A DNA stretch of 29,898 bases, taken from assembly GCA_038143065.1 (NCBI GenBank), contig JAYQLI010000008.1, forward strand, positions 1 through 29,898, given 5' to 3'. A program made the position numbers and the translations under genes. Numbering within the stretch: the first letter of the stretch is position 1; each line of letters begins with the position of its first letter. Below, in pieces: positions 96-28,508 of the stretch. Under the pieces are notes generated by a model that saw only the letters and a list, made by a program, of their open reading frames with translations, did no database searches and had not been told where the DNA came from. The stretch comes from Rhodospirillales bacterium. Its GTDB lineage: Bacteria > Pseudomonadota > Alphaproteobacteria > Bin95.

Positions 96-161
96 AAGAT
101 GTTTTGATCCTCAATAATGAAATTGAAACGAGCAGGTGGCGTCCTGCTCGCTCTTTTTCTT

Positions 162-624
162 CTAATTTGTGGGTGTGAACGTGTATACTGTGCCGTTTTC
201 ACCAGCTTGGATAGTTGTTTTTCCAATCCAACTGGCTCCAACATATGCGGCCCATTTGCCAGTTGCTGCAATGCTCGTAATCATAGCTGAACCATCTGGT
301 TGAAACGCCCCAGTATTGAGCGTTACGTCACCGTCTGGATCTACTGATCTGCATACAAACGTTCCGCCAATAGGCTGCGGTGTGGCTCCAAATGCGATGT
401 ATTGGTTGCATGTAGCGGTCGATGCTGCTGGAAACCCTTCTGGTGGATTGTCCCAAATCCATACATCCTGAGTAGTCTGCATAACTAGACCGCCAGTCTT
501 TTCCCTCCATGACATGGGTATCAATTGTAACTCCAGTTCCATGTCCGCCTAAGCTTCCATGTCCACCTGCAAATACCAACGCAGGAAAGCATGTTAATAG
601 TGCCGCAGTAGCTAAATTCTTCAC
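162..624 (-). CDS. Secreted hypothetical protein (one frameshift near 500)
   Basis: GTG at 624 after a GGGAGA RBS. Signal-peptide-like MKNLATAALLTCFPALVFA (ORF 328-681 frame) continues in the ORF 162-542 frame (GGLVMQTTQDVWIWDN...YTFTPTN). Confidence 0.65.
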
Positions 625-880
625 GTTCCATCTCCCTATTTGAAGTAACCGAATTGCAACCCTTATCCAAGAAGCCGTCAATATTTACGTTGCGGGAATT
701 TGATCTCGCCATAGTCCACTTGATAAGGATGCCCTTTAATTGAGCAAAGTAGATATTGAGGTCAAAAATTAGGTAAACGCCCTCAGGGTGTTATTGTAGG
801 CATGAGAGATGCATCGGTGTTCCGAAGTCGCTTGAGTTAGCTGCTGATTGTAAAACTGTGTTTGCGCTATTGAATGCCAC

Positions 881-963
881 CACTGTGTCTTAACCCTAGT
901 GAATGAACAGAAGTCTTTGCTGTTTGGATTTCTCCCAATCAAAAACACACTTTGGTAGACTTG
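881..963 (+). repeat. Imperfect direct repeat, copy B, upstream of the integrase (candidate att arm)
   Basis: About 82% identical to 14-95 and ends about 40 bp before the integrase start. Confidence 0.9.
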
Positions 964-1002
964 TCGGTGTTGCGAGCCATGTAATTTGGTAAGGAGATTG
1001 GC

Positions 1003-2236
1003 GTGCGACACTTGCGAGATGATACTGTTTTGATCTTGGATGGTGAAGTTCGTGTGTATCGCCGCGAACGTAGTCGTAGATGGCAGGCTGCATTTAGCAT
1101 TGATGGCAAAGCTATACGGATCAGCACTGGGAAAAGATCTGGATGAAGCCAAAGAAATCGCCCGTGACACCTACCTAGAATATAAGTTCCGACACAAGAA
1201 TGATCTCCCTGTGATTACCAAGAAGTTTGCAGATGTAGCGCGACTTGCTATTGCTGATATGCGCAAGCAGTTGGACGCGGGCTTGGGCAAGAAAGTCTAT
1301 GCAGATTACATCGTTTGCATCGAGCGCTACCTCATTCCCTATTTTGGCTCACAGTACGTAACCTCTGTTGATTATGAGAAGGTGCAAAGCTTCTATGAGT
1401 GGCGCAGAGCAAAGATGGGTAGGGAGCCCAAAGCAAGTACGCTCAACACACATAACTCTGCGATGAACCGCGTGTTTGATGAAGCTGTGGCACGGGGGTT
1501 TCTGGCACATAAGAACGTTCCAATGCTTGTGAACAAAGGTGAGAAGAGCGAACGGCGCCCAGATTTTACGCGCGAAGAATACGCAACCATGATCCGCAAA
1601 CTACCGCACTGGATCAAACAGGGCAAGGCTGGGCAAACCCACCGACATGCGATATCTCATGCGGGATTATGTGCTCATATTGGCCAACACGGGTATGCGC
1701 CATGGGACTGAAGCGCTTAACCTAAACTGGAAACACATCACGCTGTTTGAGGAAAATGATCTTCAATACCTTGAAATGAGTGTGAGAGGGAAAACGGGCA
1801 GGCGGGATATCATCTGCCGTAGCGGAACCATCAACTATCTAAAACGCATTCATGAGCGGGCAGAGGACCTGAATCACATGAGCTTCGAGCAGCTCCTAAA
1901 GAGCGCGTAGATCTGCCAGTATTTAGACTGCCCGATGGGACCGTGAGTAAAAACATCCACCAGACCTTCCGCGCATTCATGAAAGAGAGCGAGCTGATCA
2001 AATGCCCACGCACAGGCCTTAACAGAACGCTCTACAGCCTGCGCCATACTTACGCGACATTTGCATTAATCAACGATGGAATGGATATACATGCACTGGC
2101 CATACAGATGGGCACAAGCATTGGCATGATTGAACGCCACTACAGCCATCTTACACCAAGGCTTAAGAAAGACATGCTCACGGGCAAACGATATGAACTC
2201 AGCAGAGCCGAGTATCAGGAAAAGGCTTTAAAATGA
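1003..2236 (+). CDS. Tyrosine recombinase / phage-type integrase (frameshifts near 1135, 1640, 1905)
   Basis: AAGGAG RBS then GTG. Arm-binding-like N-terminus VRVYRRERSRRWQAAF...RISTG. Catalytic motifs NTGMR, GKTG, YSLRHTYAT and MGTSIGMIERHY lie across ORFs 1040-1711, 1647-1910 and 1943-2236. Confidence 0.92.
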
Positions 2237-2781
2237 ACGACACGGTTGATGCCTCATCTAAATACCAACACAGCCTTCAATCTCATCAGATGCGATAATG
2301 GAACAGCTGGATAATTGGGCGATTGCGTACACACGCGCTGATCATGTGCCTCTAAGGACCGTAGAAGATTCCAAGAAGGTTCAAGGGCAATTCTTATCTT
2401 CTGAACAGGGTGGAGGTCATATTAAAAATCTCTATTTGCGAGATAATAAAAAAGCGCAACGTGCTTTTAGTCGCCGAGCAGGATAGACAGATAGATCTCA
2501 AAACTCTGAATGCGAAACTGGGAACTGGGCGGGCTTTCTTTTGGCTCTGCCGAACGCCTAATGGAAAACCTAGGTGTTCGACCTGGGCTGTCACACCGCT
2601 TGCCATGATTAATGGTGCTGGAACGGGAGTTCAGCTGTTCATTGATAGTGGATTAAAAAGCTGCCAGCAGATCTATGTGCACCCTTTGGTTAATGATCGT
2701 ACATTGGGCATCACGTTGGAAGGCTTGCAGGTGTTCTTCGAAAAAATCAAAGTAGACCCTGTTTGGGTAGATTTAGAGTAA
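2233..2781 (+). CDS. YbaK/ProXp-ala (PrdX-like) aminoacyl-tRNA deacylase (frameshifted)
   Basis: Motifs HVPLRTVED, HIKNLYLRDNKK, GRLSFGSAERL..LGVRPGAVTPLA and HPLVNDRT. Start overlaps the integrase stop (ATGA). Confidence 0.85.
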
Positions 2782-2848
2782 TTCCTCCGCCTGACATAGC
2801 TGATAACAGTGCACATCAATAGATCACTGCTTAAATGATAAAATATTA

Positions 2849-2907
2849 CAAAGCTGACCTTCGGGGCTGAAGACGTAAATGTCTGCTATGCGGACAAAGC
2901 GTAATTT
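2849..2907. repeat. Array of 13-bp imperfect inverted elements (R-16-L-4-R), candidate recombination site
   Basis: CAAAGCTGACCTT (2849-2861), 16 nt, AATGTCTGCTATG (2878-2890), 4 nt, CAAAGCGTAATTT (2895-2907). The first pair is 10/13 complementary. Confidence 0.55.
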
Positions 2908-3009
2908 TGCGCCTACTTAATAAGTTGCTAACTTCCAGTCCTAATAACGTTTTAATTTCAAAAAAAGGCGCCGAAGCAATACGCAGCCATTGGCAAAAAA
3001 TATTTGCAA

Positions 3010-3903
3010 TTAAGTCGCCTGGATAATGCTTTTTCTGACGGTTTCAACGAACCTTTTAACAGTCTCGGAGTTACCCGACTTTCGAAATGCCACATATAAA
3101 TCGATCAGGTTTTCGGAGGGTTCAAAGGGGACGAAAGAGATCCCAGGCGGTGCAATATTCTTGACCCAGGCTGGTGCCAAGGCGATTCCTAGCCCATGGG
3201 CGACAAACTGCAGCAGGGTGGATTTGTCAATAATCTCACAAACTATATTTGGCTGGGCACCAATTTTTCGAAAACCACTCCACAAAGCCTCGTGCAGGAT
3301 TGGTCGCGCGTGCTTAGGGTAACCCACGATTGGTTGATCCGCGATGTCTGCTATGGACAGGGATACCGATCTTGAAAGAGGATCGTCTCGGCAAGGACCA
3401 CTACGATGGGTTGACGATGCAAAAGTTCGCTGGAAATAAAGTCATCTTCTAGGCGCGTCCGTACGAAGGCCACATCAGTTCTATGGGCAATCAACTCGTG
3501 GGAATGTTGTTCGGATGACGATATTTCCAGAACCTGTACATGCACCTTAAAATCGGTCTGCCGAAATGTTAGTAGAACCTGCGGTAGTAACATCGAAATT
3601 GCCTCATCAACACCGCTTACGCGAATGTGGTGAAGGTCCGACTCGGCGGTGTGGCGAACATTGGAAACCGATTTATCAATATCGGTCAGGATCCTTTTTG
3701 CATCTTGTGCAAATTCAGATCCGGCTTGGGTCAGACTGACTTGTCGAGTAGTTCTAAAAAACAGTCGGGCGCCCAGTTCGTGTTCCAACGAAGAAACCCG
3801 TTCAGAGAGAGCGGATTGGCTTAGCCCCTAGGCGTTCGCTTGCTTTCCTGAAATGAAGTTCTTCGGCGACAGCGATGAAACACTCCAGTTGTCTTATGTC
3901 CAA
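3010..3903 (-). CDS. LysR-family transcriptional regulator (frameshifts near 3830 and 3370)
   Basis: TTG start. MDIRQLECFIAVAEELHFRKASERLG..SQSALSERVSSLEHELGARLFFRTTRQVSLTQAG HTH; C-terminal VAHGLGIALAP. Confidence 0.92.
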
Positions 3904-3922
3904 TCCAATATCCTCTGCAGGT

Positions 3923-4543
3923 TCATTTTATAACGCTTATCCGCATTTTTTCATCCAATCCAGTCTCAAATTCGCGGATTGCAGAAGCGTAGCTCAACGT
4001 GTCAAGCGTATCGTCGCGGCCTCGGATCAGCGCTATTCGCGTGGCATCATCCATCTCGAACGGCACCGAACTTTCACCTGCGGCAATCATACGGCGCTCA
4101 AGGTTTATGGAAATCTCTGCGCCGCTTTGATTATCCGAAAATTGTAAAAGTAAGTCTCGCACTTCAGGAGATACGACCGGCAAAGCAAGACCATTTTTAC
4201 GCGCATTATCATAAAATATCCCAGCGAACCCTGTTCCTATACAGGCATCAATCTTCAATTGGCGCATTCCCCAGACGGCATGTTCTCGGCTTGAACCGCA
4301 TCCAAAATTATCTCCGACAACTAAGATTGTTGCTTGCGTCCAAGGCGTTTTATTTAGAATAAATTCTTGCCGCTTTTGGCCAGCTGCGTCAAAGCGCAGA
4401 TCGGCAAAGGTACCATCTGCCAAGCCTTCGCGGCTGATTGTAATCAAAAACCGTTTCGGCATGATCACATCCGTATCAACATTCGCCAGTGGCAAGGGGG
4501 CGGCGATTCCTTTAATAGTTTTTATCATTGGTTTGTCTTTCAC
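3923..4543 (-). CDS. leuD: 3-isopropylmalate dehydratase small subunit-like (LeuD paralog)
   Basis: Motifs NVDTDVIMPK, NFGCGSSREHAVW and FAGIFYDNARKNG. 4-bp overlap with the large subunit gene. Confidence 0.9.
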   Translation of the reverse strand: MKDKPMIKTIKGIAAPLPLANVDTDVIMPKRFLITISREGLADGTFADLRFDAAGQKRQEFILNKTPWTQATILVVGDNFGCGSSREHAVWGMRQLKIDACIGTGFAGIFYDNARKNGLALPVVSPEVRDLLLQFSDNQSGAEISINLERRMIAAGESSVPFEMDDATRIALIRGRDDTLDTLSYASAIREFETGLDEKMRISVIK

Positions 4544-5919
4544 TCAAAATCTCGTATGTCAGCCAGATGCCCACAAACGGCTGCTGCAGCGACCATTGCG
4601 GGTGACATTAGATGGGTGCGTGCGCCTCGGCCCTGCCGCCCTTCAAAATTCCGGTTAGTCGATGAAGCTACCCGTTCCCCCTCCATAGCAATATCGTCAT
4701 TCATCGCTAGACACATCGAACAGCCCGCCTCAGGGCGCCAATCAACCCCTGCGGTCTCGAAAATGGTGCGAAGGCCTTCGGATTCCGCCTTTAGGCGTGT
4801 CATGGCGGACCCAGGAACTACGATAGCTTCAACCCCCTCAGCCACTTGCCGGCCTTCCAATATTTTGGCTGCCTCTCGTAGATCTTCGATACGACTATTG
4901 GTACACGAGCCGATAAAGGCCGTGTCGATTTTGATCGATTGGGCCGCTTGCCCTTCTGTCAGCCCCATATACTGCAATGCGCGCTGCAGTGCCGCCTTAG
5001 CTTTGGGAGAGACGTAATCGAGAGCAGAAGGTACGTTCGCTGTTATCGGTACTGATTGGTCTGGACTGGTGCCCCAAGTGATCAAAGGCTCGATATCGGC
5101 CCCTGAAACGGTAACTTCCTTGTCAAATATGGCTCCGGAATCGCTGACCCAGTCTTCACCGCTAAATGCAAATTGACCGCTGTGCGGGTATCCTGTCAGC
5201 GCCGCTTCGGTGGTTTCATCTGCTGCGATTAAAGCCGCGCGGGCGCCCAGCTCGACTGCCATATTGCACACGGTCATACGGCCGGCCATATCAAGACCGA
5301 CAATAGCTGAGCCTGCAAACTCAACAGCAAAGCCGTTGGCTCCACCTGCACCCACGACTTGGACCACCTTCATTATGATGTCTTTTGCCGTGACGCCTGG
5401 TGCTGTAGTGCCTTCGACCGTAACGCGCATTGTCTTCATACGCTTATATCGTAGCGTTTGCGTTGCCAAAACATGTTCAACTTCAGAAGTACCAATGCCA
5501 AACCCCAAAGCCCCGAAGGCTCCATAGGTTGTTGTGTGGCTATCGCCGCATGCTATCAGCATGCCTGGCGCGACCAAGCCCTGCTCTGGAACTATAACAT
5601 GCTCAATGCCTTGGCGGGGATCACCCAAACCGTAAAATGCGATTTGATGCTTGGTACAGTTTTTTTCCAAATTATCGATCAGCAGCTTTGATTGTGCATC
5701 CGGTGCTTCGACACTGCGGGTGGCGTTAACATGATCGACCACGGCCAGATGTGCCTCCGGACGCCAGACCTTTAACCCCTTACTTTCCATACCAGAAAAC
5801 GCCTGCGGACTGGTATATTCATTCATGATGTGAAAATCGACATAAATCAGCATATCGCCATCGGGCAGATCACAAACCTTATGGTTATCCACCAGTTTAT
5901 CGTAGAGCGTGCGGGTCAT
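4540..5919 (-). CDS. leuC: 3-isopropylmalate dehydratase large subunit-like [4Fe-4S] hydro-lyase (LeuC paralog)
   Basis: TLYDK, TSPQAF, CGDSHTTTYGAFGALGFGIGTSEVEHVLATQ, cluster cysteines in IGSCTN and AGCSMCLAMN, STNRNFEGRQG. Confidence 0.93.
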   Translation of the reverse strand: MTRTLYDKLVDNHKVCDLPDGDMLIYVDFHIMNEYTSPQAFSGMESKGLKVWRPEAHLAVVDHVNATRSVEAPDAQSKLLIDNLEKNCTKHQIAFYGLGDPRQGIEHVIVPEQGLVAPGMLIACGDSHTTTYGAFGALGFGIGTSEVEHVLATQTLRYKRMKTMRVTVEGTTAPGVTAKDIIMKVVQVVGAGGANGFAVEFAGSAIVGLDMAGRMTVCNMAVELGARAALIAADETTEAALTGYPHSGQFAFSGEDWVSDSGAIFDKEVTVSGADIEPLITWGTSPDQSVPITANVPSALDYVSPKAKAALQRALQYMGLTEGQAAQSIKIDTAFIGSCTNSRIEDLREAAKILEGRQVAEGVEAIVVPGSAMTRLKAESEGLRTIFETAGVDWRPEAGCSMCLAMNDDIAMEGERVASSTNRNFEGRQGRGARTHLMSPAMVAAAAVCGHLADIRDFE

Positions 5920-5932
5920 TGAGCAGTTTCCT

Positions 5933-6824
5933 TCATATGGATCGGATTGCGGAAAAGAAGTCAGACATGCGCTCTGCTATGTCTTCAGGGCTCTCTTCAG
6001 CCATATAGTGAGAGGTATCGAGCGCCTCGCCCTCAACCTTTTCTGCCCGCTGCCGCCAGAGGCTAAGTGCGTCAAAGCATGTTTCGATTACTCCGCGTTT
6101 TGCCCAGAGCGTCAAGAGTGGCATGTCGAGTTTTCGTTCCCTGATCTGCGTTATCATGTTCAATATCGATGCTCGCGGCGGCACGGTAGTCTTCGCAGCT
6201 TGCATGAATGACCTCGGGGTTCGCGAAGGCGCTCAGGTATTCAGTCAGAGCTTCGCAGGAAAACGGGTTTTTTGCCCTTTGCCTGTTTAAAGCATTTCAT
6301 CTTCCAGAACGTTTCGGGATCTGCTCCGATCATTTTTTCGGGCAGCGGGTCTGGCTGTGTCAGAAAAACCAGTGCCAGTAAGCCCGCGCAAATTCGACGC
6401 TAGTATTGGCATACATTTCGCGGGTAGGTGCGATGTCAAGCAAAGTCATGGCAGCAACACGATCAGGATGATCCAAACCCATCCGATGCGCCACCCGCGC
6501 CCCCCGATCATGGGCGCCAACCAGAAACCGTTCATGACCCAAATACCGCATCACAGCGACAACATCATTGGCCATAGCACGTTTTGAATAGGGCTGATGC
6601 GATGCATTTGACGCTGGTTTATCTGATTGACCATATCCGCGTAAATCGGGACAGACGATTTGATAAGAGCGTGCCAGAATTGGTGCCACACCGTGCCACA
6701 TAGCAGATGTCTGCGGATAACCGTGAAGAAGAACAAGCGGAGGTGCATCTTGAGGTCCAGCGCGGCGAACAAACAAAGTCGCACCGTCTCCTTCGATACG
6801 CTCGCGCACGAAACCCTCAAACAT
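5933..6824 (-). CDS. Alpha/beta hydrolase, fluoroacetate/haloacetate dehalogenase type (frameshifted)
   Basis: LLHGYPQT, PDLRGYG, YSKRAMA, GAHDRGARV, LLDIAPT, YWHWFF, CEDYRA (read in an intermediate frame near 6180-6197) and SHYMAEE. Confidence 0.88.
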
Positions 6825-7006
6825 TTTGAACTCCTTGGGTATGTTTAACTTTTATCCATTATTTCAGATTAAACCTGAATATTTAATCGTAAAAACTGAA
6901 CAGTTTTGCCGACTAATTCTTGCGTCAATCCCATGTAGTCTTTTTCAACAGAAGCCGCGCCAGAAGAAATCAGGGAACGCGGTAAAAAGAACCAAAGGAG
7001 GATATC

Positions 7007-7999
7007 ATGAAATTTCTGTTGAACACCGCATTATCTCTTACGTGTGCATTAGGTGCCACATCCGCGTTTGCCGCCTGCGATACAGGCGAAACCGTTATTA
7101 AATTTAGCCATGTTACCAACACTGACAAACATCCAAAGGGAATAGCAGCCACGTTGCTAGAGCAGCGCGTCAATGATGAGATGAACGGCAAGGCCTGTAT
7201 GGAGGTTTTTCCAAATTCAACCCTTTATGACGATAATAAAGTTCTTGAAGCATTGCTTCAGAATGATGTGCAGCTAGCAGCGCCTTCGCTGTCAAAGTTT
7301 GAGAAGTTCACCAAACAGTTCCGTATCTTTGACTTGCCTTTCATGTTCGAGAACATCGAAGCCGTCGATGCATTCCAAGGCTCTGATGCTGGGCAGGCTT
7401 TGCTAGACAGTATGCAAAAGCGTGGTCTTCAAGGTTTGACATTCTGGCATAACGGTATGAAACAAATGTCTGCTAATGTACCGTTGATGTCACCAGCAGA
7501 CGCTAATGGTCTTAAATTCCGTGTGATGTCGTCAGACGTTTTGGTTGCCCAAATGGAAGCACTCGGAGGAGCTCCACAAAAAATGGCCTTCTCTGAAGTC
7601 TATGGTGGGTTACAGCAAGGTGTCGTTGATGGGCAAGAAAACACGTGGTCAAACATTTATGGTAAGAAGTTTTTCGAAGTACAGGACGGTATCACGGAAA
7701 CCAACCACGGTATTATTGACTATCTGGTTGTGACCAGTGTTGATTGGCTTGATAGCCTGGAAGCCGATGTCCGCGACCAGTTTTTAACGATCTTGAACGA
7801 GGTAACTGAGCTTCGCAATGCTCAATCCTTTGCTGTAAACCAAGCCAACCGGCAAGCTATAATTGAGGCGGGCAGCACAGTTCGGACTCTAACGCCTGAA
7901 GAGCGTCAGGCATGGGTTGATGTTATGAAACCAGTCTGGGATCAATTCGCGGATGATGTTGGTCAGGACATGATCAACGCAGCACAATCCCTTAATTAA
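7007..7999 (+). CDS. dctP: TRAP transporter substrate-binding protein, C4-dicarboxylate type
   Basis: Signal peptide, IKFSHV, HPKG, VFPNSTLY, FDLPFMF, GLKFRV, FSEVYGGLQQGVVDGQEN; AAGGAGG RBS. Confidence 0.95.
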   Translation: MKFLLNTALSLTCALGATSAFAACDTGETVIKFSHVTNTDKHPKGIAATLLEQRVNDEMNGKACMEVFPNSTLYDDNKVLEALLQNDVQLAAPSLSKFEKFTKQFRIFDLPFMFENIEAVDAFQGSDAGQALLDSMQKRGLQGLTFWHNGMKQMSANVPLMSPADANGLKFRVMSSDVLVAQMEALGGAPQKMAFSEVYGGLQQGVVDGQENTWSNIYGKKFFEVQDGITETNHGIIDYLVVTSVDWLDSLEADVRDQFLTILNEVTELRNAQSFAVNQANRQAIIEAGSTVRTLTPEERQAWVDVMKPVWDQFADDVGQDMINAAQSLN

Positions 8000-8021
8000 A
8001 GTCACTTGATTCAACCTGTTC

Positions 8022-8042
8022 GGAGGCGTTTTAGACGCCTTC
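8022..8042 (+). terminator. Stem-loop after dctP (mRNA stabiliser or partial terminator)
   Basis: GGAGGCGT-TTTAG-ACGCCTTC, 8-bp stem with one G-U pair. Confidence 0.5.
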
Positions 8043-8065
8043 TAACATGCTTGGAAAGTTAAATT

Positions 8066-8731
8066 ATGAATCACTCAAAATCGTTTACCGATCGTATTGA
8101 GGAGACGTTGATCTCAGCCATTCTTGGCGTAATGACATTGATTACATTCGCCAACGTCGTGGCGCGGTATGGGTTCAACAAAAACATTCTTTGGGCTCTT
8201 GAGCTAACTGTCTTTCTCTTCGGTTGGTTGGTACTCCTCGGTGCCTCTTATGCCGTCAAAAAGGGTTCACATCTTGGTGTTGATATCGTCGTCAATATTC
8301 TAACTTCGAAATCACGCCGCGTCGTGGGTTTGGTTGCTGTGGCTGTATGCGTTGCCTTCAGCTTTCTAATGCTGAAAGGAGCTTGGGACTACTGGGCGAA
8401 TTTCGCCAATCTGCCGGGCACGGAGGGGCGTTGGTTTCCGCTCGGTTTTGAAGAAAAGTACCGCGACAAAGGATGGTACGAGGTCAATGACATCCCGCAT
8501 CCCGCCATATTAGGATGGATGGAAACGGTCTTCAATGAGGGCGAAGAATATGAGAAGATCCCACGCCTTTTGCCATATTTCGTTCTGCCATTGTCAATGG
8601 CGTTGATGCTTTTCCGGTTTCTACAAGCTGCATGGGCTCTCTGGGTCGGCGCGGCTGACCGTTTGGTGGCCAGTCATGAGGTTGAAGATGAAATCCAAGA
8701 TGCTCGTGAGCAGTTGAGAAAGAAATCCTGA
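8066..8731 (+). CDS. dctQ: TRAP transporter small permease
   Basis: IEETLI, FANVVARY, WALELTVFLFGWLVLLGASY, HLGVD; four hydrophobic segments. Confidence 0.93.
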   Translation: MNHSKSFTDRIEETLISAILGVMTLITFANVVARYGFNKNILWALELTVFLFGWLVLLGASYAVKKGSHLGVDIVVNILTSKSRRVVGLVAVAVCVAFSFLMLKGAWDYWANFANLPGTEGRWFPLGFEEKYRDKGWYEVNDIPHPAILGWMETVFNEGEEYEKIPRLLPYFVLPLSMALMLFRFLQAAWALWVGAADRLVASHEVEDEIQDAREQLRKKS

Positions 8732-10141
8732 TGGAAGTTGTTCTACTTTTTACCTTAGTCATCGGCATGCTGGTTATCGGTGTACCGATCGCGGTCGCAC
8801 TTGGCATGTCCTCCCTGCTGTTTTCTGCTAGCCTTTTCTGACAGTTCACTTGCATCAGTGGCCCAAACCCTGTTCAGCGCCTTCGAGGGCCACTATACGC
8901 TTCTTGCGATCCCGTTTTTTATTTTAGCCTCTTCGTTCATGACAACTGGCGGCGTTGCCCAGCGGATCATCCGGTTTTCAATTGCCTGTGTCGGACACTT
9001 GCCCGGTGGGCTGGCCATTGCCGGCGTTTTTGCCTGCATGCTGTTTGCAGCCCTGTCAGGTTCTTCACCAGCAACTGTCGTGGCAATTGGAACGATCGTT
9101 ATTGGAGGAATGATCCAAGTTGGCTATTCAAAGGATTTTGCTGCAGGTGTGATCTGCAATGCAGGTACGCTGGGAATTCTTATTCCGCCCTCTATCGTGA
9201 TGGTTGTCTATGCGGCTTCGGTGGAAGTTTCGGTTGGACGGATGTTTCTCGCTGGCGTCATCCCGGGGCTTTTGGCTGGCTTTATGCTTATGACCGCGAT
9301 TTATGTCATGGCAAAGGTGAAAAACTTACCCAAAGGCGAATGGCAAGGATGGAGAGAGGTTTTTGCCTCGGGACGCGAAGCCGGTTGGGGCCTTTTCTTA
9401 ATCGTGATTATCCTTGGCGGTATCTATGGCGGGGTATTCACCCCAACCGAAGCGGCCGCGGTTGCTGCGGTCTATGCATTCTTCATTGCCAACTTTATCT
9501 ACAAAGATATGGGTCCACTTGCCGAAAAAGGCCCGCGCGATCTTTCCGCTGCCTATGTAGAGGGTCCAAGAGGGACCACTTCTTTATGGCGTCAGCCTTG
9601 GGCGCTGGTGACAGCTTTCTTCCATCCCGATACAAAGCACACGCTGCTGGAAGCAGGCAAACTCACCGTTACGCTCTTATTTGTAATCGCAAACGCGCTC
9701 ATTCTTAAGCATGTTCTGACGGATGAACAAGTTCCACAACATGTGGCTAATGCAATGTTATCGGCGGGCTTCGGACCGGTTATGTTCCTTATCGTCGTGA
9801 ACATCATCCTGCTGATTGGTGGGCAGTTCATGGAGCCTTCAGGATTACTTGTGATTGTCGCTCCACTGGTCTTTCCAATTGCGATAGAACTGGGCATTGA
9901 TCCGATTCACCTCGGTATCATTATGGTTGTTAACATGGAAATTGGTATGATCACGCCACCGGTTGGGTTAAATTTATTTGTCACTTCAGGCGTTGCTGGC
10001 ATGCCAATGATGTCGGTCGTCAAGGCTGCGCTTCCATTCCTAGGCGTTCTTTTTGTTTTCTTGATCTTGGTAACCTACGTGCCTTGGATTTCGACCTTTC
10101 TACCCAACCTCATCATGGGGCCGGAAATCATTTTGAAGTAG
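8731..10141 (+). CDS. dctM: TRAP transporter large permease (frameshift near 8820)
   Basis: ATG overlaps the dctQ stop (TGATG). LLAIPFFILA, FAALSGSSPAT, GTLGILIPPSI, FTPTEAAA, EIGMITPPVGLNLFV. Confidence 0.95.
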
Positions 10142-10312
10142 TATTATTGGCCGAAACAGACTGGTGGCACCTGAAGAGGTGCTGCCTTGTTTTCTGCCGA
10201 ACTGAAGACGCTTCTCATTTAGCTTTTGACGGCTCAGGCCAATCACTATGTTCTGCACTTTTGAGGAAAGGATTTAGCCTCCCGCTTATTCCTTCAGTCG
10301 ACGCTTTGCAGC

Positions 10313-10373
10313 AACGGCTACTTTGGGCTCATTGCCAGTCATTTCGCTGCGCTTTGAATGAATGTCCGCTCTG
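10313..10373. repeat. Array of 13-bp imperfect inverted elements (L-4-R-17-L), candidate recombination site
   Basis: AACGGCTACTTTG (10313-10325), 4 nt, CATTGCCAGTCATT (10330-10343), 17 nt, AATGTCCGCTCTG (10361-10373; 11/13 identical to 2878-2890). Confidence 0.55.
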
Positions 10374-10388
10374 GTTAGCTCCTGCGTG

Positions 10389-10954
10389 TCACAGCAACTC
10401 CACTGCCTGACTAAGCTGATCACTATTCACATCAATATATCTCTGCGTTGTGCTGATATGCGAATGCCCTGCAAGTTCGGCGAGTAACCGTACTCCCACG
10501 CCTTTGTTTGCTAATCGGGTGATATATGTGCGCCGTCCACTATGGCTGGATGCATCTTTAAGACCGCAGGCTTTATAGATGTCCAAAAATAGCTGGCACA
10601 TTGTGTTTGCCGAAAAGTGCCCGCCTTTTTGACTCTCAAATAGAGGACGATCTAACTCTTGCAAACATATACTTTTGGCATAGGTGGCAAGCGCTTTTCT
10701 TAAGCGCTGATTGAGATACACAGTTCTGCGCTGCCCACCTTTGCTTTGATCCACGCCCAGAATAAACTGATCTCGCACAGCGCCTGTCTCATCAAATACG
10801 TCTCCTAGTTTAAGTGCCGCAATTCTTTGGCGCGTAGGCCTGCATAAAAGCTAACCATGAATATTGTCGTGTCACGAACTGGATGACGGCGACTGCGGCA
10901 GTAGTGTAATACTCTGCGAAACTGTGCTTCATTTAGTGTTTGTGCCTGCCGCAT
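10389..10954 (-). CDS. Short (~188 aa) catalytic-domain-only tyrosine recombinase (frameshift near 10825)
   Basis: AAGGAG RBS. MRQAQTLNEAQFRRVL...RDTTIFMVSFYAGLRAKE, SKGG, SSHSGRRTY, LAGHSHISTTQRY: complete R-K-H-R-H-Y set. Confidence 0.92.
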
Positions 10955-11212
10955 CTCAAAGCTCCTTAAACATAATGTTTTGTTAGCTCTGAGTATAAAG
11001 TCTGAGGTTTAGGTTGGGCGACCGAAATCTGTCAATAAATATATCAAATGATTTCAATGGGATCAGCTATAATCTCATACAATATGTTCTATGAGGTTTT
11101 TTACAGAGAACCAGTTTTGAGGTGTTTTTCTGATAAAGTTGATAAATAAACATATAGGCAAAAACACAGGCTGAATAAGGCAAAGTAAACGAGATCAAGA
11201 TTGGCGCGTCGA

Positions 11213-11639
11213 TTATAATAGCGCTGTGGTGATGTACTTTGAAAACGTTAGCATAAATCGAACTGCCCGTTGTTCGTCTTCAAATGCACTACCCCATGCT
11301 GCTGGCAGGATGCCTGAAACGCACTTATCTAAACAACTTGGAGTGAACGTTTGCAAAGTCGTAATGGTTGAGAAGGAACGCCTTTTAAAAGTGAGACGGA
11401 AGACAACCCCGCAAGGGATCCGTCACTGCACAGGGGTGCCTGACCGTATAGGTCCTGTGTAGGCGTGTGATACGCCAGTAATAGAGATGATCGCAAAACC
11501 TGCTCTTCCCTGCAAAGGGTTTGGTGATACGGGCTGACAAGCGATGTGCAATAGACGCATTGAGCAGTTTTAGATTGATGCCTTTACAGGCGTTGATCTG
11601 ACTGCTCTTTGCAATCTCGAATAAAGGAAACGAACTCAA
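11213..11639 (-). CDS. Possible small hypothetical protein (frameshifted)
   Basis: ORF 11385-11639 plus a downstream frame ending AFEDEQRAVRFMLTFSKYITTALL*. Same strand as its neighbours; no recognised family. Confidence 0.3.
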
Positions 11640-11750
11640 TTGAACTTAATTAGTTAAGACGAAGTATCTGAGTTCGGCGATAGCTGAACGCTCGTAGATG
11701 CGAAGCAGATGCGATTGACGATAAAGATATTCAAACAGCTCCAACTAAGC

Positions 11751-12089
11751 CTAATATTCTTCTCCAAGCATAATCGTGAGCACACGTCTGGTCACATGTG
11801 GATCACTTGGATCAGGACTGTGGTGCATCAGATCAAGGTCGTAGTAATCGATCTTCCAAAAGACAGTATTGCCCTCATACTCAATTGCTCCAAAGTCGTG
11901 TTCGCCAAATGGATCATTGCGCTCAGAGAAGTCATCAAAACCTTTCACCAAATTTAAGATGCAATCCACTGAGTCCAATGCAATGAATCTATGCCTTGTG
12001 TGATGATGAGTTTGCAATTTGGTGATGGTGCGGGTTTGATCGTTTAGAAGGGCAATGGATTGGGCTGTTCTGTCAACGTCGGGCTGCAA
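11751..12089 (-). CDS. DUF3768 domain protein
   Basis: AAGGAG RBS and TTG start. Signature FDDFSERNDPFGEHDFG...FWKIDYYD...SPDPSDPHVTRRVLTIMLGEEY. Confidence 0.85.
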   Translation of the reverse strand: MQPDVDRTAQSIALLNDQTRTITKLQTHHHTRHRFIALDSVDCILNLVKGFDDFSERNDPFGEHDFGAIEYEGNTVFWKIDYYDLDLMHHSPDPSDPHVTRRVLTIMLGEEY

Positions 12090-12150
12090 GCCTAGCTCCT
12101 TTTACAAAAGCATATGCTCAACGGTAAGTTTGGACGACTGATAATATAGA

Positions 12151-12178
12151 AAGAGCCACCAAAAAATGAGCGGCTCTT
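12151..12178 (-). terminator. Probable terminator after the AAA+ gene
   Basis: AAGAGCC...GGCTCTT inverted repeat followed by T-rich sequence on the minus strand. Confidence 0.4.
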
Positions 12179-12198
12179 CAGTAAGCTAGTAAGAAGCT

Positions 12199-12865
12199 TT
12201 AGGATCCAGTGCGGGCTTCAAGAAGCTGATCAAACCCAGACTTGTCCGAGGTAAAATCCAAAATTGTATCTTCCAACCAATCCATCATTTTACGTCCACT
12301 GCCTTCAAACCCTTTGTAATAGCTGGGTTTGAACTTCAGTTAAAAAGATACCGTTAGTATCTAATATGGCTTTGGCTCGGGAAGCCGTGATCTACGGTTG
12401 GATAGGTAAACTCTAGGCATCGACAACGATCTTGAGTGGCTGATCAATCCAGTGCAGGTTATTTGTGGTACAGATGATAATGCCAAAAGTATGCTCATCG
12501 ACGATTGCGCGCAATGCTTGCTTTCGCATGCCGGGCTTTAGTTGATCCACTTCTTCTATGATCAAACATCCGTGCAACATGCCAAAGGCGCGTTGGTAGT
12601 TCCAATTACCGGTGAGAATATCCAAACTCTTATCTTCTAACGCGCTTGCACGCACCGAGCATTTGCTGATGTTCGTCTTCTTCTGCATATCTACCCTTTC
12701 GCGATCAGGTTTTGCGGTCTCGCTCTTACCAGCGCCGCGTGGTCCGTGCAGAATAAGATGCTTGTGCCTTTGTTGGCAGTTTCTTTGACGATACGTTCGA
12801 CATAAGCGTCCACAAAGATAATATCGTCCAAAGTTTTGGGGGCGATGCTTTTCTTCAAACTTCAT
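12199..12865 (-). CDS. RFC/clamp-loader-clade AAA+ ATPase (several frameshifts)
   Basis: Rebuilt across frames: EKHRPKTLDDII (RFC box II-like), Walker A HGPRGAGKS, Walker B IIEEVD, sensor-1 ICTTN, DRC arginine finger, GSGR, ending LLEARTGS*. Confidence 0.75.
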
Positions 12866-22674: not shown

Positions 22675-24104
22675 TGACCATTTACGATAAATTTGGCTAT
22701 TTGTTGGCGGAGCTTGGGCGGACTCTAGTTCTGGTGAAATACCGGTATATAGTCATGATACCGAACGCGTATTGGGCAAAGTGCCGACTGCCGATATTGC
22801 ATTAACGCAACGCGTAATTTCTGACGCGCAAGCAGCTTTTTTAGTTTGGTCAAAAACACCAGTTTGGGAGCGCGCGACACGGTTGCATAAAGTCGCGGAC
22901 GAAATGTCATCCCGTAGCGAGGAAGCTGCGCGCATGATAGTGTTAGAAACTGGCAAGCCCATTACTCAAGCTCAACGTGAATGGAGCTTAGCTGTAGACC
23001 AATTTCGATGGTATGCTGAGGAAGCGAGGCGAGTTTATGGGCGTATTGTTGAAACACGTGTGCCAAATGGCGAATTTAGTATTACGTGAGCCTGTAGGAG
23101 TTGTTGCTGCGTTTACGGCTTGGAACTTTCCTGCTGCTTTAGATTGTTCGTAAAGTCGCTCCAGCTTTGGCTGCTGTGTTCTGGTTATTCTGCGTCCGTC
23201 TAACCAAACCCCAGGTGTTTCCATGGTGCTCTTTGACTGTTTGCATTCCGCTGATCTCCGAGTGGCACAGTCAATTTATTGGTTGGCGCGGCGCAGGATA
23301 TTTATTCCCCCATTATGGAATCCAGCGTGGTTCGTAAAGGTGTCGTTGACTGGTTCAACCAAAGTGGGTCAACAGATGATCCGTGACCCGCTCGAACACT
23401 AAAAAAGGTATCAATGGAACTTGGTGGAAATGCACCGATGATCCTATTTGAAGATGGAGACACTAAAGCGCTGCTTTAGATGGATGCGTTGCTGCAAAAT
23501 TTGCGAATGCGGGGCGCGTGTCCTCCAGATAGGTTTTTCATTCACGAGCAACATTACAAAGAATTTGTTGAAGGTTTCAGGGACAGCGCAACTAAGTTGC
23601 GTCTTGGAGATGGTCTTGATCCGGCTACTGATATGGGGCCCTTGATCAATGAACAAAGAAGAACAGATATTTCCATCAAAGTAGCTCAAGCCCTTGATAG
23701 TGGAGCTCATCTAGAATGTGGCGGAGGACCCGCCGAGGAATTCGATACAGGATATTTCTATAAGCCTACCGTATTAACGAATGTTTCGGATGAGATGCTT
23801 GGTCTGGCTGAAGAGAACTTTGGCCCAATTGCTGCCATTACAAGCTTTTCCAATGAAGACAGTGATAGAGCGGCAAATAGCTCTCCCTATGGGTTTGTCA
23901 GCATATGCTTTTACTTCAGACCCCGCACGCGTTCGCCGAATTCAATCAAATCTCAAAGCCGGTATGGTTGGTGTAAACAGCTTTGCCTTAGCCGCGGCCG
24001 AAGTGCCTTTTGGCGGAACGAAATACTCGGGCATGGGCCCGCGAGGGCGGAATAGAAGGTCTTGCGGTTATTTAGATACCAAATTAACACAATGGGTAAT
24101 GTGA
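22674..24104 (+). CDS. NAD(P)-dependent aldehyde dehydrogenase, GabD/SSADH-like (many frameshifts)
   Basis: ETGKPITQA, WYAEEARRVYGR, AFTAWNFP, SLTGST, SMELGGNAP, EENFGP, PFGGTKYSG. Confidence 0.88.
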
Positions 24105-24111
24105 GGGATAG

Positions 24112-24928
24112 ATGATTAAAATCGCCTTAAAAGCTCATTGGATTGATAATAAAGCAACTTTGAACGGCTGGCTTTCGATAAACTCTGCTTTTGTAAGTGA
24201 AATTATGGCTGATCAAGGGTTTGATAGCCTAACGGTAGATATGCAGCATGGGGCCGTGAGTTATGAGGGTATGCTCGCGATGTTACAAGCGATGCGCGCC
24301 TCGCAGGTTGTTCCAATGGTGCGTGTGCCTTGGAACGAACCTTCAGTAATTATGAAAGCTTTAGATGCAGGTGCGTATGGAATAATTTGTCCCTATGATC
24401 AACAGCGCAAGTCAGGCAGAGGAATTCGTGGCATCGCTGCGATATCCCCCTGATGGCATAATGCATTTTGGATCCCTACGAGAGCAAATTTTCTGCAGGC
24501 TCAAACTATGCACAAGAGGCTAATGGCGAAATCGTCGGCCTTGCGATGATTGAAAACAGCAGAAGCATATACGCAGATATACAGGAAATTGTAAAAACGC
24601 CTGGGTTGATGGTGTTTATATCGGTCAGCTGGATTTAACCCTTGGATTAACAAAAGGGCGTTTGATACAGGATTTGACCGAACAGAACCTGAGATGGTTG
24701 AGGTCATTAAAGATATCTTAAACATAGCAAAAAGTGCTGGAATTTATGCTGAATCCATTGTGGTTCAGCAAAATACGCCGCCAAAGCAATTAGTTGGGGG
24801 TTTAATTTTACCACGATTTCTAATGATGTGCGTATTCTGCAACAACTGCTTCAAATTTGACTGCTGAAGCACGAGAACAAATAGGTGTTTGTGAAGGACG
24901 TAGCCGCCAAGATCGAGGAGGCTATTAA
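24112..24928 (+). CDS. HpcH/HpaI class II aldolase (frameshifted)
   Basis: NGWLSI, GFDSLTVDMQHG, VRVPWNEP, KALDAGAYGIICP, AMIE. Confidence 0.88.
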
Positions 24929-25194
24929 TATGAAAACTTACTTTTCTGGCGTGGCTGATAGAAACTCTAGTTCAAATTCGAGTAGGGGTAAAATTCAGCA
25001 GAAACTGAACGAGAAATTTGTGGTCTTGTGTCGGCTTTGAGTTCGAGCTGGCCTACTTTTTGCGCAGCATGAAAGCGGCTCATTGCCGTTTGTTTGTTGT
25101 TCAGAACCGGTTCTGGGATGAAAACATCACAGAACCATCCTGCTTGATTACGTATAAAAATAAGATCCTGTTTAAAAATCCAGTGGAGGACTAA

Positions 25195-26197
25195 ATGAAA
25201 CAGACGATCAAAACACTCGCTGCAAGCGCAGTGCTTGGCTACGGCCGGAGCGAGCTTTGCGGATAACTCAGATATTCGGGTTGGTTTTTACCCCAAAATT
25301 TTGAAAGATGACTTTCAAACTTTGATGACATCGCTGTCCAAAAAAGCATTTGCAATAAAGGCTTTACACTTGTAGGCGCGCCTGACCCTAATGGTGATAT
25401 TACGCGCAAGTGGATGCGTTGCAAAATTTATTGGCAAATGGAGCGAATGTAATTGTGTTTGCGCCGTTAGATGCTGCAGGCGTTCCTGCTGTTAAGCGCG
25501 CTAACGAAAAAGGAGCGTTGGTCTTCTCAATTGATGATGGCCCTGCGGGCAGTGAGGTTACAGCGGGCGTGCTGATAATCTGGTCACAGGCGTGAGCGCG
25601 GAAAGATGGTGCGTCGTTTAAGGGGAAAACTTGCTGGTCTGATAATAGTTAGCGTTCTTGAACTTCAGGGAGGGTTAACGACACCGACGAGATTAGACCG
25701 TTCAGATACTTCTGACACCATGCGAGCATTAGCACCAGATGTAAAGGTAATTCAGCGTCCGACAGTGGACAGCAGATATGGCAACAGATACAGCTCAAAA
25801 CGTACTTACCCAAAATCCTTCGTTGACCAGGATCTTTATGGCTTCTGAATTAATGGCGACGGCGTGAATGCGCAGTTGAAGCGGGCGGGAAAAGATGCCG
25901 CCAGTAGGTGATCCGGACTTTCTGAATTCGCGCGTGGCAATCGATGGAACGCCGCAGGGTTTACAATTAATCCGTGACGGAGCGTTGGATGCGACTGTTT
26001 CGCAGCCATTAAGCGCATATGCAACGAAGACGGCGGAGCTTATAGAGCTGGTGTCAAATGGTGGTACAATTGAACTTGGTCCAAAACCGGATGGTCAAGT
26101 GATTGATACGCCCGTCCGGGCCTCATATCAGCTTAACGCAACATTGGTGACTAAGGAAAACGTGGATGCGCCTGGTCTTTGGGCAAATCAGCTTTAG
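25195..26197 (+). CDS. Sugar ABC transporter substrate-binding protein (many frameshifts)
   Basis: GGAGGA RBS, signal peptide MKQTIKTLAASAVL, NLLANGANVIVFAPLD, VLELQG, AIDGTPQGLQLIRDGALDATVSQP. Confidence 0.85.
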
Positions 26198-26276
26198 CAT
26201 AAATTAGGCTTTGAAGTTAGCTCAGCAAAATAAACATAATTCTCCGTGAGCTAAGTTATTTCTGAGCTTTGAATGT

Positions 26277-26301
26277 TTTTGGGCCCTTTTGGGGCCCAAA
26301 A
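26277..26301. terminator. Perfect 10-bp stem-loop after the binding-protein gene
   Basis: TTTTGGGCCC-TTTTG-GGGCCCAAAA. Confidence 0.65.
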
Positions 26302-27534: not shown

Positions 27535-27548
27535 ATTAAGGGGCCGCG

Positions 27549-28499: not shown

Positions 28500-28508
28500 G
28501 AGAATGCA

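What the first reader, a model, noticed from the sequence alone, without database searches (positions are those of the whole stretch)
2849..10954. Candidate cassette system: 7-kb cargo bracketed by related 13-bp inverted-element arrays, one next to a minimal tyrosine recombinase
Seen: both borders of the LysR-leuDC-dehalogenase-dctPQM block carry alternating inverted ~13-bp elements (left-type consensus about AAYGKCYRCTHTG) with similar spacers of 4 nt and 16-17 nt (2849-2907 and 10313-10373). A further partial element, GACATAGCTGA, is at 2793-2803. The right array ends 15 bp from the stop of a ~188-aa recombinase that has all catalytic residues but no N-terminal binding domain. The L-4-R unit is about 30 bp, the size of a tyrosine-recombinase core site. 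Inference: these are recombination sites that load or exchange whole catabolic modules, an integron-like mechanism that uses neither attC nor IntI. This is my best structural candidate for an undescribed system. The elements are degenerate and there are only two arrays.
Basis: partly seen in the sequence, partly recalled or inferred. Interest (0 to 1): 0.8.

Follow-up and report, generated by a model that had tools for sequence, protein, structure and literature searches.

The report
Mobile cargo module beside mini-recombinase gene
A 7.6-kb block of transport and catabolic genes in a marine Roseobacter-type bacterium is a swappable module inserted into the tail end of a small recombinase gene and bordered by short repeats, which fits known genomic-island accretion better than a new integron-like system.

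Summary
Both repeat arrays are at the stated coordinates. The left one (2849-2900) is the best copy of a ~55-nt repeat family "E" (nhmmer E 4e-14). The right one (10308-10373) is a diverged relative that the model misses. The cargo is a discrete module. 2881-10355 recurs on contig C12 (96.5%) with other flanks. The left flank plus E precedes three other cargos (C7, C23, IMCC1909). IMCC1909 has int-E-other cargo-E'-recombinase.

The clearest integration signature lies elsewhere. A displaced 57-nt copy of the recombinase gene's 3' end (2774-2830) sits beside the YbaK-like gene, and in HTCC2083 the intact recombinase gene abuts that gene (empty site). Metagenome contigs from two studies carry the predicted circle or tandem junction. 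Four other loci have inserts flanked the same way (7 solo 3' remnants, 0 solo 5').

In 44 of 80 homologous loci the 188-aa recombinase faces a P4-type integrase, with 0-5.6 kb of variable DNA between them.

Best reading (0.55): an integrase-less module accreted site-specifically at the recombinase gene's 3' end, with E repeats as conserved module ends and exchange points. The acting enzyme is unknown. New variant of a known kind.

The parts
1003..2236 (+). P4-type tyrosine integrase (about 410 aa), read in three frames here
   Evidence: Phage_int_M hit. 77% identity to the HIMB11 integrase over residues 44-410, with internal stops. A homologue lies convergent to the 188-aa recombinase in 44 of 80 loci.
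2410..2781 (+). YbaK/tRNA_edit-domain gene, the original downstream neighbour of the recombinase gene
   Evidence: PF04073. In HTCC2083 (L038) its 3' end abuts the stop of the intact recombinase gene.
2774..2830 (-). displaced 3'-terminal fragment (about 57 nt) of a 188-aa recombinase gene; left direct repeat
   Evidence: nhmmer with a 75-nt model of 51 gene ends gives E 3e-4. 42 of 54 positions are identical to 10392-10446. The flank beyond it equals the empty-site flank of L038. The same fragment is present in IMCC1909.
   Evidence: Best hit of the family profile, E 4.4e-14. Alignment of 19 copies. Homology with C7, C23 and IMCC1909 ends at about 2898-2910, and homology with C12 starts at 2881.
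2881..10355 (.). cargo shared with contig C12 (56940-49478), 96.5% identity
   Evidence: A public 8370-letter contig (run X16) bridges 957-9327 at about 98%.
3010..3788 (-). LysR-type regulator (two ORFs here)
   Evidence: HTH_1 and LysR_substrate hits. A one-base insertion after 3382 is supported by all 4 runs.
3923..5919 (-). LeuD- and LeuC-type dehydratase subunits
   Evidence: NF002458 198 bits and NF009116 676 bits, both over cut-off.
5933..6824 (-). alpha/beta-hydrolase (split)
   Evidence: Abhydrolase_1. No NCBIfam family reaches its cut-off.
7007..10141 (+). TRAP transporter DctP, DctQ, DctM
   Evidence: Read. 10307-10355 is shared with both C12 and IMCC1909. Not detected by the family profile.
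10389..10954 (-). 188-aa catalytic-domain-only tyrosine recombinase ('rec188'), one frameshift in this assembly
10392..10446 (-). regenerated 3' end of rec188; right direct repeat. The 10-nt stretch 10428-10437 is identical to 2812-2821.
   Evidence: The metagenome joint 10406, 21 nt, 2812 keeps this register.
11074..11095 (.). palindrome S (9-6-9 in most loci) about 150 nt upstream of rec188. Homology among gene copies starts here, and a 1.1-kb insertion polymorphism lies next to it.
11385..12865 (-). genes upstream of rec188: 84-aa ORF, DUF3768, AAA fragment; conserved in IMCC1909

Best explanation
Window 2831-10388 is an integrase-less cargo module. It carries a LysR regulator, a LeuCD-type dehydratase, a hydrolase and a TRAP transporter. 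It was integrated site-specifically into the 3' end of the 188-aa Xer-like recombinase gene, in a conserved insertion hotspot between that gene and a convergent P4-type integrase (here followed by a YbaK-like gene).

The incoming DNA brought its own copy of the gene's last ~57 nt. That copy regenerated the gene (10392-10446). The old 3' end (2774-2830) was displaced and stays beside the old neighbour.

The two 'arrays' lie just inside the module's ends. They belong to an island-associated repeat family built from ~20-nt units in alternating orientation plus a 10-4-10 near-palindrome. I read them as the conserved terminal arms of such modules, that is, accessory or secondary recombinase sites. 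Cargo diverges at them and has been swapped at them.

Shown: the anatomy, the repeats, the second copy, the alternative cargos, the empty site and the junction contigs.

Inferred: that a tyrosine recombinase (the neighbouring P4-type Int or rec188, acting in trans) does the integration; that the crossover is near the 10 nt shared at 2812-2821 and 10428-10437; and that the E units are protein-binding sites.
For: Displaced fragment and regenerated end:
- nhmmer finds 7 solo 3' fragments and 0 solo 5' fragments in the same search space.
- The window fragment is followed by the same YbaK flank that follows the intact stop codon in HTCC2083.
- L003, L009, L027 and L059 each have an insert of 0.9-2.1 kb flanked by the intact gene end and a same-strand fragment.
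- Partial copies that are not at contig edges all keep the 3' end: L065, L074, L080, G001:C3, G001:C2:809763 and C10.

Junction:
- Contigs in runs X2 and X8 (two studies) join 10406 to 2812 through 21 nt. That is the length of 10407-10427, as predicted for a circle or tandem junction. Depth is about one fifth of the block's.

Hotspot:
- 44 of 80 loci have a convergent integrase. The gap is -35 to +9 nt in 8 loci, 149-650 nt in 13 and 0.8-5.6 kb in 23.

Module behaviour:
- The C12 copy.
- The same left end with other cargos on C7, C23 and IMCC1909.
- IMCC1909 has int-E-(MarR, MFS, racemase)-E'-rec188.

Repeat family:
- 11 of 19 copies lie on homology breakpoints against 0.77 expected.
- In HTCC2083, 6 of 12 copies lie within 3.3 kb of one of 24 recombinase genes in 4 Mb.
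- The family is present in 26 of 121 sampled genomes at 1-12 copies, and the copies are clustered.

Other:
- No integrase is found among the block's ORFs.
- The left junction is bridged by an independent 8370-letter contig.
Against: - The displaced fragments differ in length (57, 57, 65, 72, 74, 131 nt). They are only 67-79% identical to the resident gene ends. There is therefore no single proven crossover point, and they could be decayed gene copies.
- The 21 nt in the junction contigs match neither repeat exactly (12 of 21 against 10407-10427). The contigs are not a fresh excision product of this locus, and a tandem array is not excluded.
- The empty site is in another genus, at about 77% DNA identity.
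- The C12 copy has neither the gene fragment nor the outer halves of the arrays, so the cargo also moves or recombines by a route through the arrays themselves.
- E repeats are not detected in the four other fragment-flanked inserts.
- In this assembly the repeats are only weakly closer to recombinase genes than chance: 7 of 19 within 3 kb against 3.6 expected, P about 0.05.
- No listed public contig bridges 10330-10490.
- The assembly is a mixture of at least three organisms and this contig is error-rich.
Confidence: 0.55

Rival explanations
1. The arrays themselves are the crossover sites of a cassette system run by the 188-aa recombinase. E would act like attC and the recombinase-proximal site like attI, and operon-sized modules would be loaded and exchanged at the 10-4-10 core.
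For: - The core is a near-palindrome of the size of a simple tyrosine-recombinase site.
- Every resolvable homology switch falls in or at the edge of the ~20-nt core, and none falls in the upstream unit.
- The C12 copy is bounded by the core on the left and by mid-E' on the right.
- 14 of 25 weak profile hits in 757 kb lie within about 130 nt after the recombinase stop. 10 of those 14 loci have no integrase within the flank.
- A 1.1-kb EamA gene with a core-like sequence at its far end is inserted next to palindrome S in L002 and in runs X15 and X16. That topology is integron-like.
Against: - Nothing links the enzyme to the site.
- The core is the best-conserved part of the repeat, so any recombination would tend to map there.
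- The block lies 3' of the recombinase gene, holds genes on both strands and has its own regulator.
- The integration hallmark uses the gene's 3' end.
- S, not E, is the site always found with the gene.
- E copies also lie beside P4-type integrases and beside a 227-aa recombinase family.
Confidence: 0.2
2. The arrays are REP/BIME-like intergenic repeats with no dedicated recombinase. Modules are operons separated by such repeats, and mosaics arise by homologous or illegitimate recombination at the only sequence that unrelated modules share. The gene fragments are relics of decayed recombinase copies in tandem islands.
For: - The ~20-nt units occur in alternating orientation in intergenic DNA, often after stop codons.
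- Fragment lengths vary and identity is low.
- In HTCC2083 a 99.9%-identical duplicated segment ends at such repeats but carries IS110- and IS5-type transposases, so other agents use these places.
- No conserved secondary structure is predicted.
Against: - Copy number is low and patchy: 0-12 per genome, and 95 of 121 sampled genomes have none at E<=1e-4.
- Copies are clustered near tyrosine-recombinase genes.
- No RAYT-type gene is found in the assembly.
- There is a strict 3' polarity: 7 solo 3' fragments against 0 solo 5'.
- The fragment keeps the exact empty-site flank.
- The junction contigs have the predicted register.
Confidence: 0.2
3. Assembly artefact: chimeric joins in a noisy mixed assembly created the bracketed block.
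For: - The contig has many single-base indel errors.
- The assembly holds three rRNA types.
- 23% of the small contigs resemble one another.
Against: - An independent 8370-letter contig bridges integrase, YbaK, the left array and the block.
- IMCC1909 has the same YbaK-fragment-E junction and the same E'-recombinase junction.
- 20 runs from 10 studies hold 67-82% of the sampled words.
Confidence: 0.03

Closest known systems
Tandem site-specific accretion and cis-mobilizable elements (CIMEs) beside ICEs/IMEs (review PMC5704250; I read the passages on CIME and accretion)
   Same: [quoted passage not shown]
- It lies next to an element that encodes an integrase.
- The newest insert sits next to the regenerated gene end.
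   Different: - The target is the 3' end of a small tyrosine-recombinase gene that is itself multicopy.
- The host is a marine Rhodobacteraceae.
- The cargo is a self-regulated catabolic and transport operon set.
- An extra repeat family sits at the module ends.
- No conjugation genes were seen.
Genomic islands in the 3' ends of tRNA/tmRNA genes (Islander, PMC4383910, abstract seen in the listing; Dehalococcoides ssrA islands, PMC3146451, abstract read)
   Same: - A regenerated target and a displaced fragment mark the endpoints.
- There is an integration module plus exchangeable catabolic cargo.
- Repeated use of one site gives strain-level diversity.
   Different: The target is a protein-coding recombinase gene. 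The displaced fragments are only 67-79% identical to the regenerated ends.
Integrons (IntI, attI, attC cassettes; features recalled, not taken from a call)
   Same: - A recombinase gene sits beside a place where variable DNA is loaded.
- Modules are bounded by imperfect inverted-repeat elements.
- Homology breaks fall at a short core.
   Different: - rec188 scores 32.9 bits against a cut-off of 265 for the integron-integrase model.
- The modules are multi-gene, on both strands, with their own regulators.
- The block lies 3' of the recombinase gene.
- No GTTRRRY-type core can be read in E.
Acinetobacter plasmid dif modules (abstracts of PMC13141974 and PMC6449649 seen in the listing)
   Same: Discrete accessory modules are bounded by short Xer-type palindromic sites and shuffled between contexts without an integrase of their own.
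   Different: - There the sites are XerC/XerD sites on Rep_3 plasmids.
- Here the bracketing repeats are direct and longer (55-80 nt), they lie in chromosomal-island-like DNA, and they were not compared with the host dif site.
REP/BIME repeats and RAYT transposases (recalled)
   Same: Short imperfect palindromic units in alternating orientation, in intergenic DNA.
   Different: 0-12 copies per genome, clustered near tyrosine recombinases. No Y1 transposase in the assembly.

Membership tests
CIME / tandem accretion at a gene-3'-end att site | [quoted passage not shown] | tested here: met
   2774-2830 against 10392-10446: 42 of 54 identical, same strand
CIME / tandem accretion at a gene-3'-end att site | the target gene is regenerated intact | tested here: met
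   Homologues at 96% identity are 188 aa. The one frameshift coincides with a single gap in a public contig over 10491-11011.
CIME / tandem accretion at a gene-3'-end att site | no integrase or transfer genes inside the element | tested here: met
   Pfam and NCBIfam scans of the block's ORFs. The ORFs are fragmented by assembly errors, so small genes could have been missed.
CIME / tandem accretion at a gene-3'-end att site | an unoccupied site exists | tested here: met
   HTCC2083 L038: the YbaK 3' end abuts the recombinase stop. Eight further loci have the integrase abutting. All are in other genera.
CIME / tandem accretion at a gene-3'-end att site | excision to a circle with a hybrid att site | tested here: inconclusive
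   The joint 10406-21 nt-2812 is seen in runs X2 and X8. It has the predicted register, but it is a sequence variant and a tandem array would look the same.
CIME / tandem accretion at a gene-3'-end att site | a resident integrase mobilises it in cis or in trans | not testable with these tools
   Candidates: the P4-type Int (1003-2236) and rec188 (10389-10954).
Integron | IntI-type integrase | tested here: not met
   TIGR02249: 32.9 bits against cut-off 265. NF011946: 16.8 against 435.
Integron | single promoterless ORF cassettes ending in attC, in one orientation, upstream of and divergent from the integrase | tested here: not met
   The block has at least 7 genes on both strands with a LysR regulator, and it lies 3' of the recombinase. 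No dedicated attC model was run.
REP/BIME with RAYT | many copies spread over intergenic regions of the whole genome | tested here: not met
   0, 0, 2, 5 and 12 copies in five named genomes. 26 of 121 sampled genomes have any copy. The model was trained on one subfamily, so diverged copies are missed.
REP/BIME with RAYT | cognate Y1 (RAYT) transposase | tested here: not met
   PF01797: 0 matches in the assembly. This organism's part of the assembly is incomplete.
XerC/XerD, XerA, FimB/FimE-type invertases (for the 188-aa protein) | score over the curated family cut-off; two-domain architecture for Xer | tested here: not met
   XerA 89.8 against 220, XerC 76 against 335, XerD 71 against 330, invertase 29.5 against 221. 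It aligns only to the catalytic halves of 4a8e, 5hxy and 1a0p. Longer fused forms were not searched.
dif modules | modules bounded by XerC-6-XerD sites related to the host dif | not tested
   The host dif site was not identified. The E core is 10-4-10.

The most novel reading that the evidence does not exclude
The 188-aa catalytic-domain-only recombinase is the engine of a two-sided capture platform that is widespread in marine Rhodobacteraceae. Its own 3' end and the 9-6-9 palindrome S at -150 would serve as landing sites. The E repeats would be the module-borne partner sites. Operon-sized, self-regulated catabolic and transport modules, and single genes such as the 1.1-kb EamA insert, would be loaded and exchanged in an integron-like way without IntI or attC.
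Probability: 0.15. Interest if true: 0.85.

Novelty: new variant of a known kind. Interest (0 to 1): 0.5.

Why it matters
Roseobacter-group bacteria are abundant marine heterotrophs, and their strain-level differences lie largely in transport and catabolic operons.

This locus shows a concrete, repeatable route by which such operons are added and swapped:
- The hotspot lies at the 3' end of a mini recombinase gene with more than 2,600 homologues.
- That gene is paired with a P4-type integrase in 44 of 80 loci.
- Its modules recur in metagenomes of 10 studies.

If the enzyme and sites are confirmed, displaced gene fragments could be used to delimit islands automatically in this family, as is done for tRNA genes. 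If the mini recombinase proves to act on simple palindromic sites, it would be a compact recombination tool and a new example of operon-scale capture.

Tried and rejected
- Rfam scan of the window: no family.
- RNAalifold on 19 E copies: no consensus pairs. I read hairpins by eye, but they were not in a common register.
- RAYT search: none.
- Same-genus relatives of the assembly lack the block. This proved uninformative, because the assembly is a mixture and its classification follows the 2.86-Mb contig C35. For the same reason, 'no E copy on C35' says nothing.
- Downstream DNA of the recombinase paralogues in the assembly is not conserved. Only C10 shows an E'-like sequence.
- Proximity of E to recombinase genes inside this assembly is weak: 7 of 19 against 3.6 expected, P about 0.05.
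- The HTCC2083 99.9%-identical 5.2-kb duplicate ends exactly at an E core. It carries IS110- and IS5-type transposases and a DUF6538 integrase, so it does not show which agent moved it.
- Palindrome S as a paired site: only one copy per recombinase gene was found in the assembly. The L002 insert is not flanked by two S sites.
- Public contigs: none of the listed pieces bridges 10330-10490. Loose ends at 10331 and 10343 show alternative contexts there.
- Earlier notes of this scan: nothing by place or by sequence.
- Literature: searches for Rhodobacteraceae or Roseobacter with tyrosine recombinase, genomic island, repeat, tRNA and tandem listed no paper describing this recombinase family, its pairing with the integrase or the repeats. 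Supplements were not available.

Full report
**Context.** The window is the whole of contig C8 of an assembly of 52 contigs. That assembly is a mixture. One 2.86-Mb contig (C35) holds 46 tRNA genes and two rRNA operons. Contigs C39 and C49 carry rRNA operons only about 83-88% identical to those and to each other. The 51 small contigs share no DNA similarity with C35, and 23% of their length resembles other small contigs. They are poor in long ORFs. Public contigs contradict the window at many single-base indels in 3-4 of 4 runs. The split ORFs, including the recombinase, are therefore mostly assembly errors. By protein and DNA similarity the window belongs to a Rhodobacteraceae. The closest named record is strain IMCC1909, at 94% for the recombinase and 91% over 3 kb of DNA.

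**The observation.** The 13-nt consensus alone is weak evidence. Its 3 exact matches all lie in the arrays it came from. With one mismatch there are 5 matches against 1.5 expected.

A search with the 20 nt at 2881-2900 showed that the left array is one copy of a longer repeat. The repeat has three parts:
- a unit close to CAAAGCAGACCTTCGCTGCG;
- about 10 nt of spacer;
- a near-palindromic core, GTCTGCTWTG-CGGA-CAAAGCGGAC.

A profile scores the window copy best (E 4.4e-14) and converges on 19 copies in the assembly. The right array contains the same ~20-nt unit twice, once inverted (10308-10330) and once direct (10333-10352), plus half a core (10361-10373). The profile does not find it. They are sub-units of a repeat family, not two isolated arrays.

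**The block is a module.**
- 2881-10355 recurs on C12 at 96.5% identity (189 mismatches and 72 gap positions in 7,505 columns), with unrelated DNA on both sides.
- The left flank together with the repeat recurs on C7 (92%), on C23 (78%) and in IMCC1909. Each time different DNA follows after the core.
- IMCC1909 has the same architecture with other cargo. The integrase is followed after about 29 nt by an E copy. Then come 3.8 kb encoding MarR, an MFS transporter, a permease fragment and a racemase. Then comes an E'-like element and the recombinase.
- A second module there, after YbaK, the gene fragment and E, encodes LacI, a ComA-like enzyme and TctA.
- On other contigs a 5.5-kb module is bounded by E copies at both ends in two contexts.
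- Over the assembly, 11 of 19 E copies carry a homology breakpoint within 25 nt. Randomly placed intervals give 0.77, and none of 2,000 trials reaches 11.

In every case I could resolve, the upstream unit goes with the DNA on its own side and the switch falls in or at the edge of the ~20-nt core. The core is also the best-conserved part of the repeat, so this does not prove a site-specific crossover there.

**The recombinase and its partner.**
- The gene encodes 188 aa. 2,698 database proteins match, and most of the 120 best hits are 188 aa long.
- It matches only the catalytic domain of Xer-type enzymes and reaches no curated family cut-off.
- It is multicopy in several genomes and often sits at contig ends.
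- Copies share only the stretch from about -150 to the stop codon.
- At -150 nearly all loci have a palindrome, typically CTCATAGAA-N6-TTCTATGAG. In the assembly this palindrome occurs only beside these genes.
- In 44 of 80 loci a P4-type integrase lies convergent and downstream. The stop codons overlap or abut in 8 loci, are 149-650 nt apart in 13, and are 0.8-5.6 kb apart in 23.
- The pairing holds even for distant versions (63% and about 30% identity).

The space between the two genes is therefore a conserved hotspot for variable DNA. The window's 8.1 kb is the largest filling among the loci examined.

**The integration signature.** Between the YbaK-like gene and the left array lies a 57-nt copy of the recombinase gene's 3' end (2774-2830). 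It is on the same strand as the intact gene and identical to it at 42 of 54 positions. The DNA beyond it is the YbaK 3' end. In HTCC2083 the same YbaK 3' end directly follows the stop codon of the intact gene. That is the pattern of site-specific integration into the 3' end of a gene. The incoming DNA regenerates the end, and the old end is displaced together with its old neighbour.

The pattern recurs:
- IMCC1909 has the same fragment.
- L003, L009, L027 and L059 each have a same-strand fragment 0.9-2.1 kb downstream of an intact gene.
- A symmetric search found 7 solo 3' fragments and no solo 5' fragment.
- All larger partial copies away from contig edges keep the 3' end.

Contigs from two metagenome studies join position 10406 to position 2812 through 21 nt. 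That is exactly the length of 10407-10427, so they read E', gene fragment, spacer, E. This is the junction expected for an excised circle or a tandem array.

Points against this reading:
- The fragments vary in length (57-131 nt) and are only 67-79% identical to the resident ends.
- The 21 nt are a variant (12 of 21 identical).
- The empty site is in another genus.
- The four other fragment-flanked inserts have no detectable E repeats.

**What the arrays are.** They lie 18 nt and 15 nt inside the ends of the inserted DNA. E-type copies also lie in these places:
- directly after integrase stop codons (C2, IMCC1909, L020);
- just upstream of integrase starts, inverted, so that the unit faces the gene (HTCC2083, L016, L042, L063);
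- after a 227-aa recombinase plus an unknown 160-aa gene, in at least 5 copies;
- within about 130 nt after the 188-aa recombinase stop, in 14 of 80 loci.

In clean genomes the family is rare and clustered:
- 0 to 12 copies in five named genomes.
- 26 of 121 sampled genomes of the family have any copy.
- In HTCC2083, 6 of 12 copies lie within 3.3 kb of one of 24 recombinase genes in 4 Mb.
- One genome has 6 of its 10 copies within 57 kb, around a recombinase gene.

No RAYT gene is present in the assembly. I therefore read the arrays as conserved terminal arms of island modules, most likely protein-binding sites. The C12 copy shows that they are also places where cargo has been exchanged.

**Mechanism and comparison.** The most likely course is as follows. 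A module carrying a junction of about 230 bp (E', gene fragment, spacer, E) recombines with the 3' end of the resident recombinase gene. The crossover is probably near the 10 nt identical at 2812-2821 and 10428-10437. The reaction is catalysed in trans by the neighbouring P4-type integrase or by the 188-aa enzyme. Repeated rounds stack modules next to the gene. This is the known logic of tandem accretion and cis-mobilizable elements (passages of PMC5704250) and of islands in tRNA and tmRNA genes (abstracts).

What I did not find described:
- the target gene, a multicopy mini recombinase;
- its constant pairing with the integrase;
- the repeat family;
- the operon-scale, self-regulated cargo.

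The integron-like reading remains possible. A 1.1-kb EamA gene with a core-like sequence at its far end is inserted beside palindrome S in one genome and in two runs. No step of that reading is shown.

**Verdict.** It is a new variant of a known kind. Interest 0.5.

Noticed in passing
window 11074-11105; L002 4735-5852: A 1.1-kb insertion polymorphism lies right beside palindrome S upstream of the recombinase. L002 carries an EamA-family transporter gene there, with a sequence resembling the E core at its far end. Runs X15 and X16 show 1,114 extra letters at 11086/11097.
   Followed up: partly
G000 contig C42: 40972 and 43962: Two similar palindromes (ATAGAAA..TTCTATAAT with the same flanks) lie 3 kb apart, next to a distant (38%) homologue of the 188-aa recombinase.
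   Followed up: no
whole assembly (C35, C39, C49): There are three rRNA types only about 83-88% identical to each other. The assembly is a mixture of at least three organisms, and its taxonomic 'relatives' follow C35, not the window.
   Followed up: partly
window 2277, 2448, 3382, 3825, 5952, 6139, 6268, 6363, 8821 and others: Single-base indels relative to public contigs are supported by 3-4 of 4 runs. They explain the split LysR, hydrolase, integrase and other ORFs.
   Followed up: partly
G000 C1:2744-4497; C12:29453-32838 and 67583-70129; C50:29936-32969; C2:30290-32926: A repeated unit consists of a 227-aa tyrosine recombinase, a 160-aa gene with no Pfam family, and an E repeat about 180 nt after it. 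There are at least 5 copies at 85-93% identity.
   Followed up: partly
G000 C12:38545-38680, C43 about 4730-4870, C2 about 28000-28150: A ~135-nt repeat begins with an E-like core and ends in a terminator-like hairpin with a T run. It has unrelated flanks.
   Followed up: no
L117 (HTCC2083 1,041,747-1,048,544) and L118: Two 99.9%-identical copies of a 5.2-kb segment end exactly at an E core, beside a 3' fragment of a 227-aa-type recombinase gene. The segment holds a DUF6538 integrase and IS110- and IS5-type transposases.
   Followed up: partly
L114 (HTCC2083 76,180-89,638): tRNA-Phe is followed after about 220 nt by an E copy, then a 13-kb segment, then a second E copy in the same orientation 74 nt upstream of the P4-type integrase.
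   Followed up: no
window 3343-3355: GATGTCTGCTATG, a 12-of-13 match to the left core, lies inside the LysR gene at the place where the ORF is split. The split is explained by an indel error at 3382, so this is probably chance.
   Followed up: no
window 113-2313 and 24057-29898: Both ends of the contig have paralogues on C9 (88% and 95%). The integrase region has paralogues on C2, C5, C7 and C47. A related integrase on C12 (266-1481) lies next to a tRNA-Met gene.
   Followed up: no
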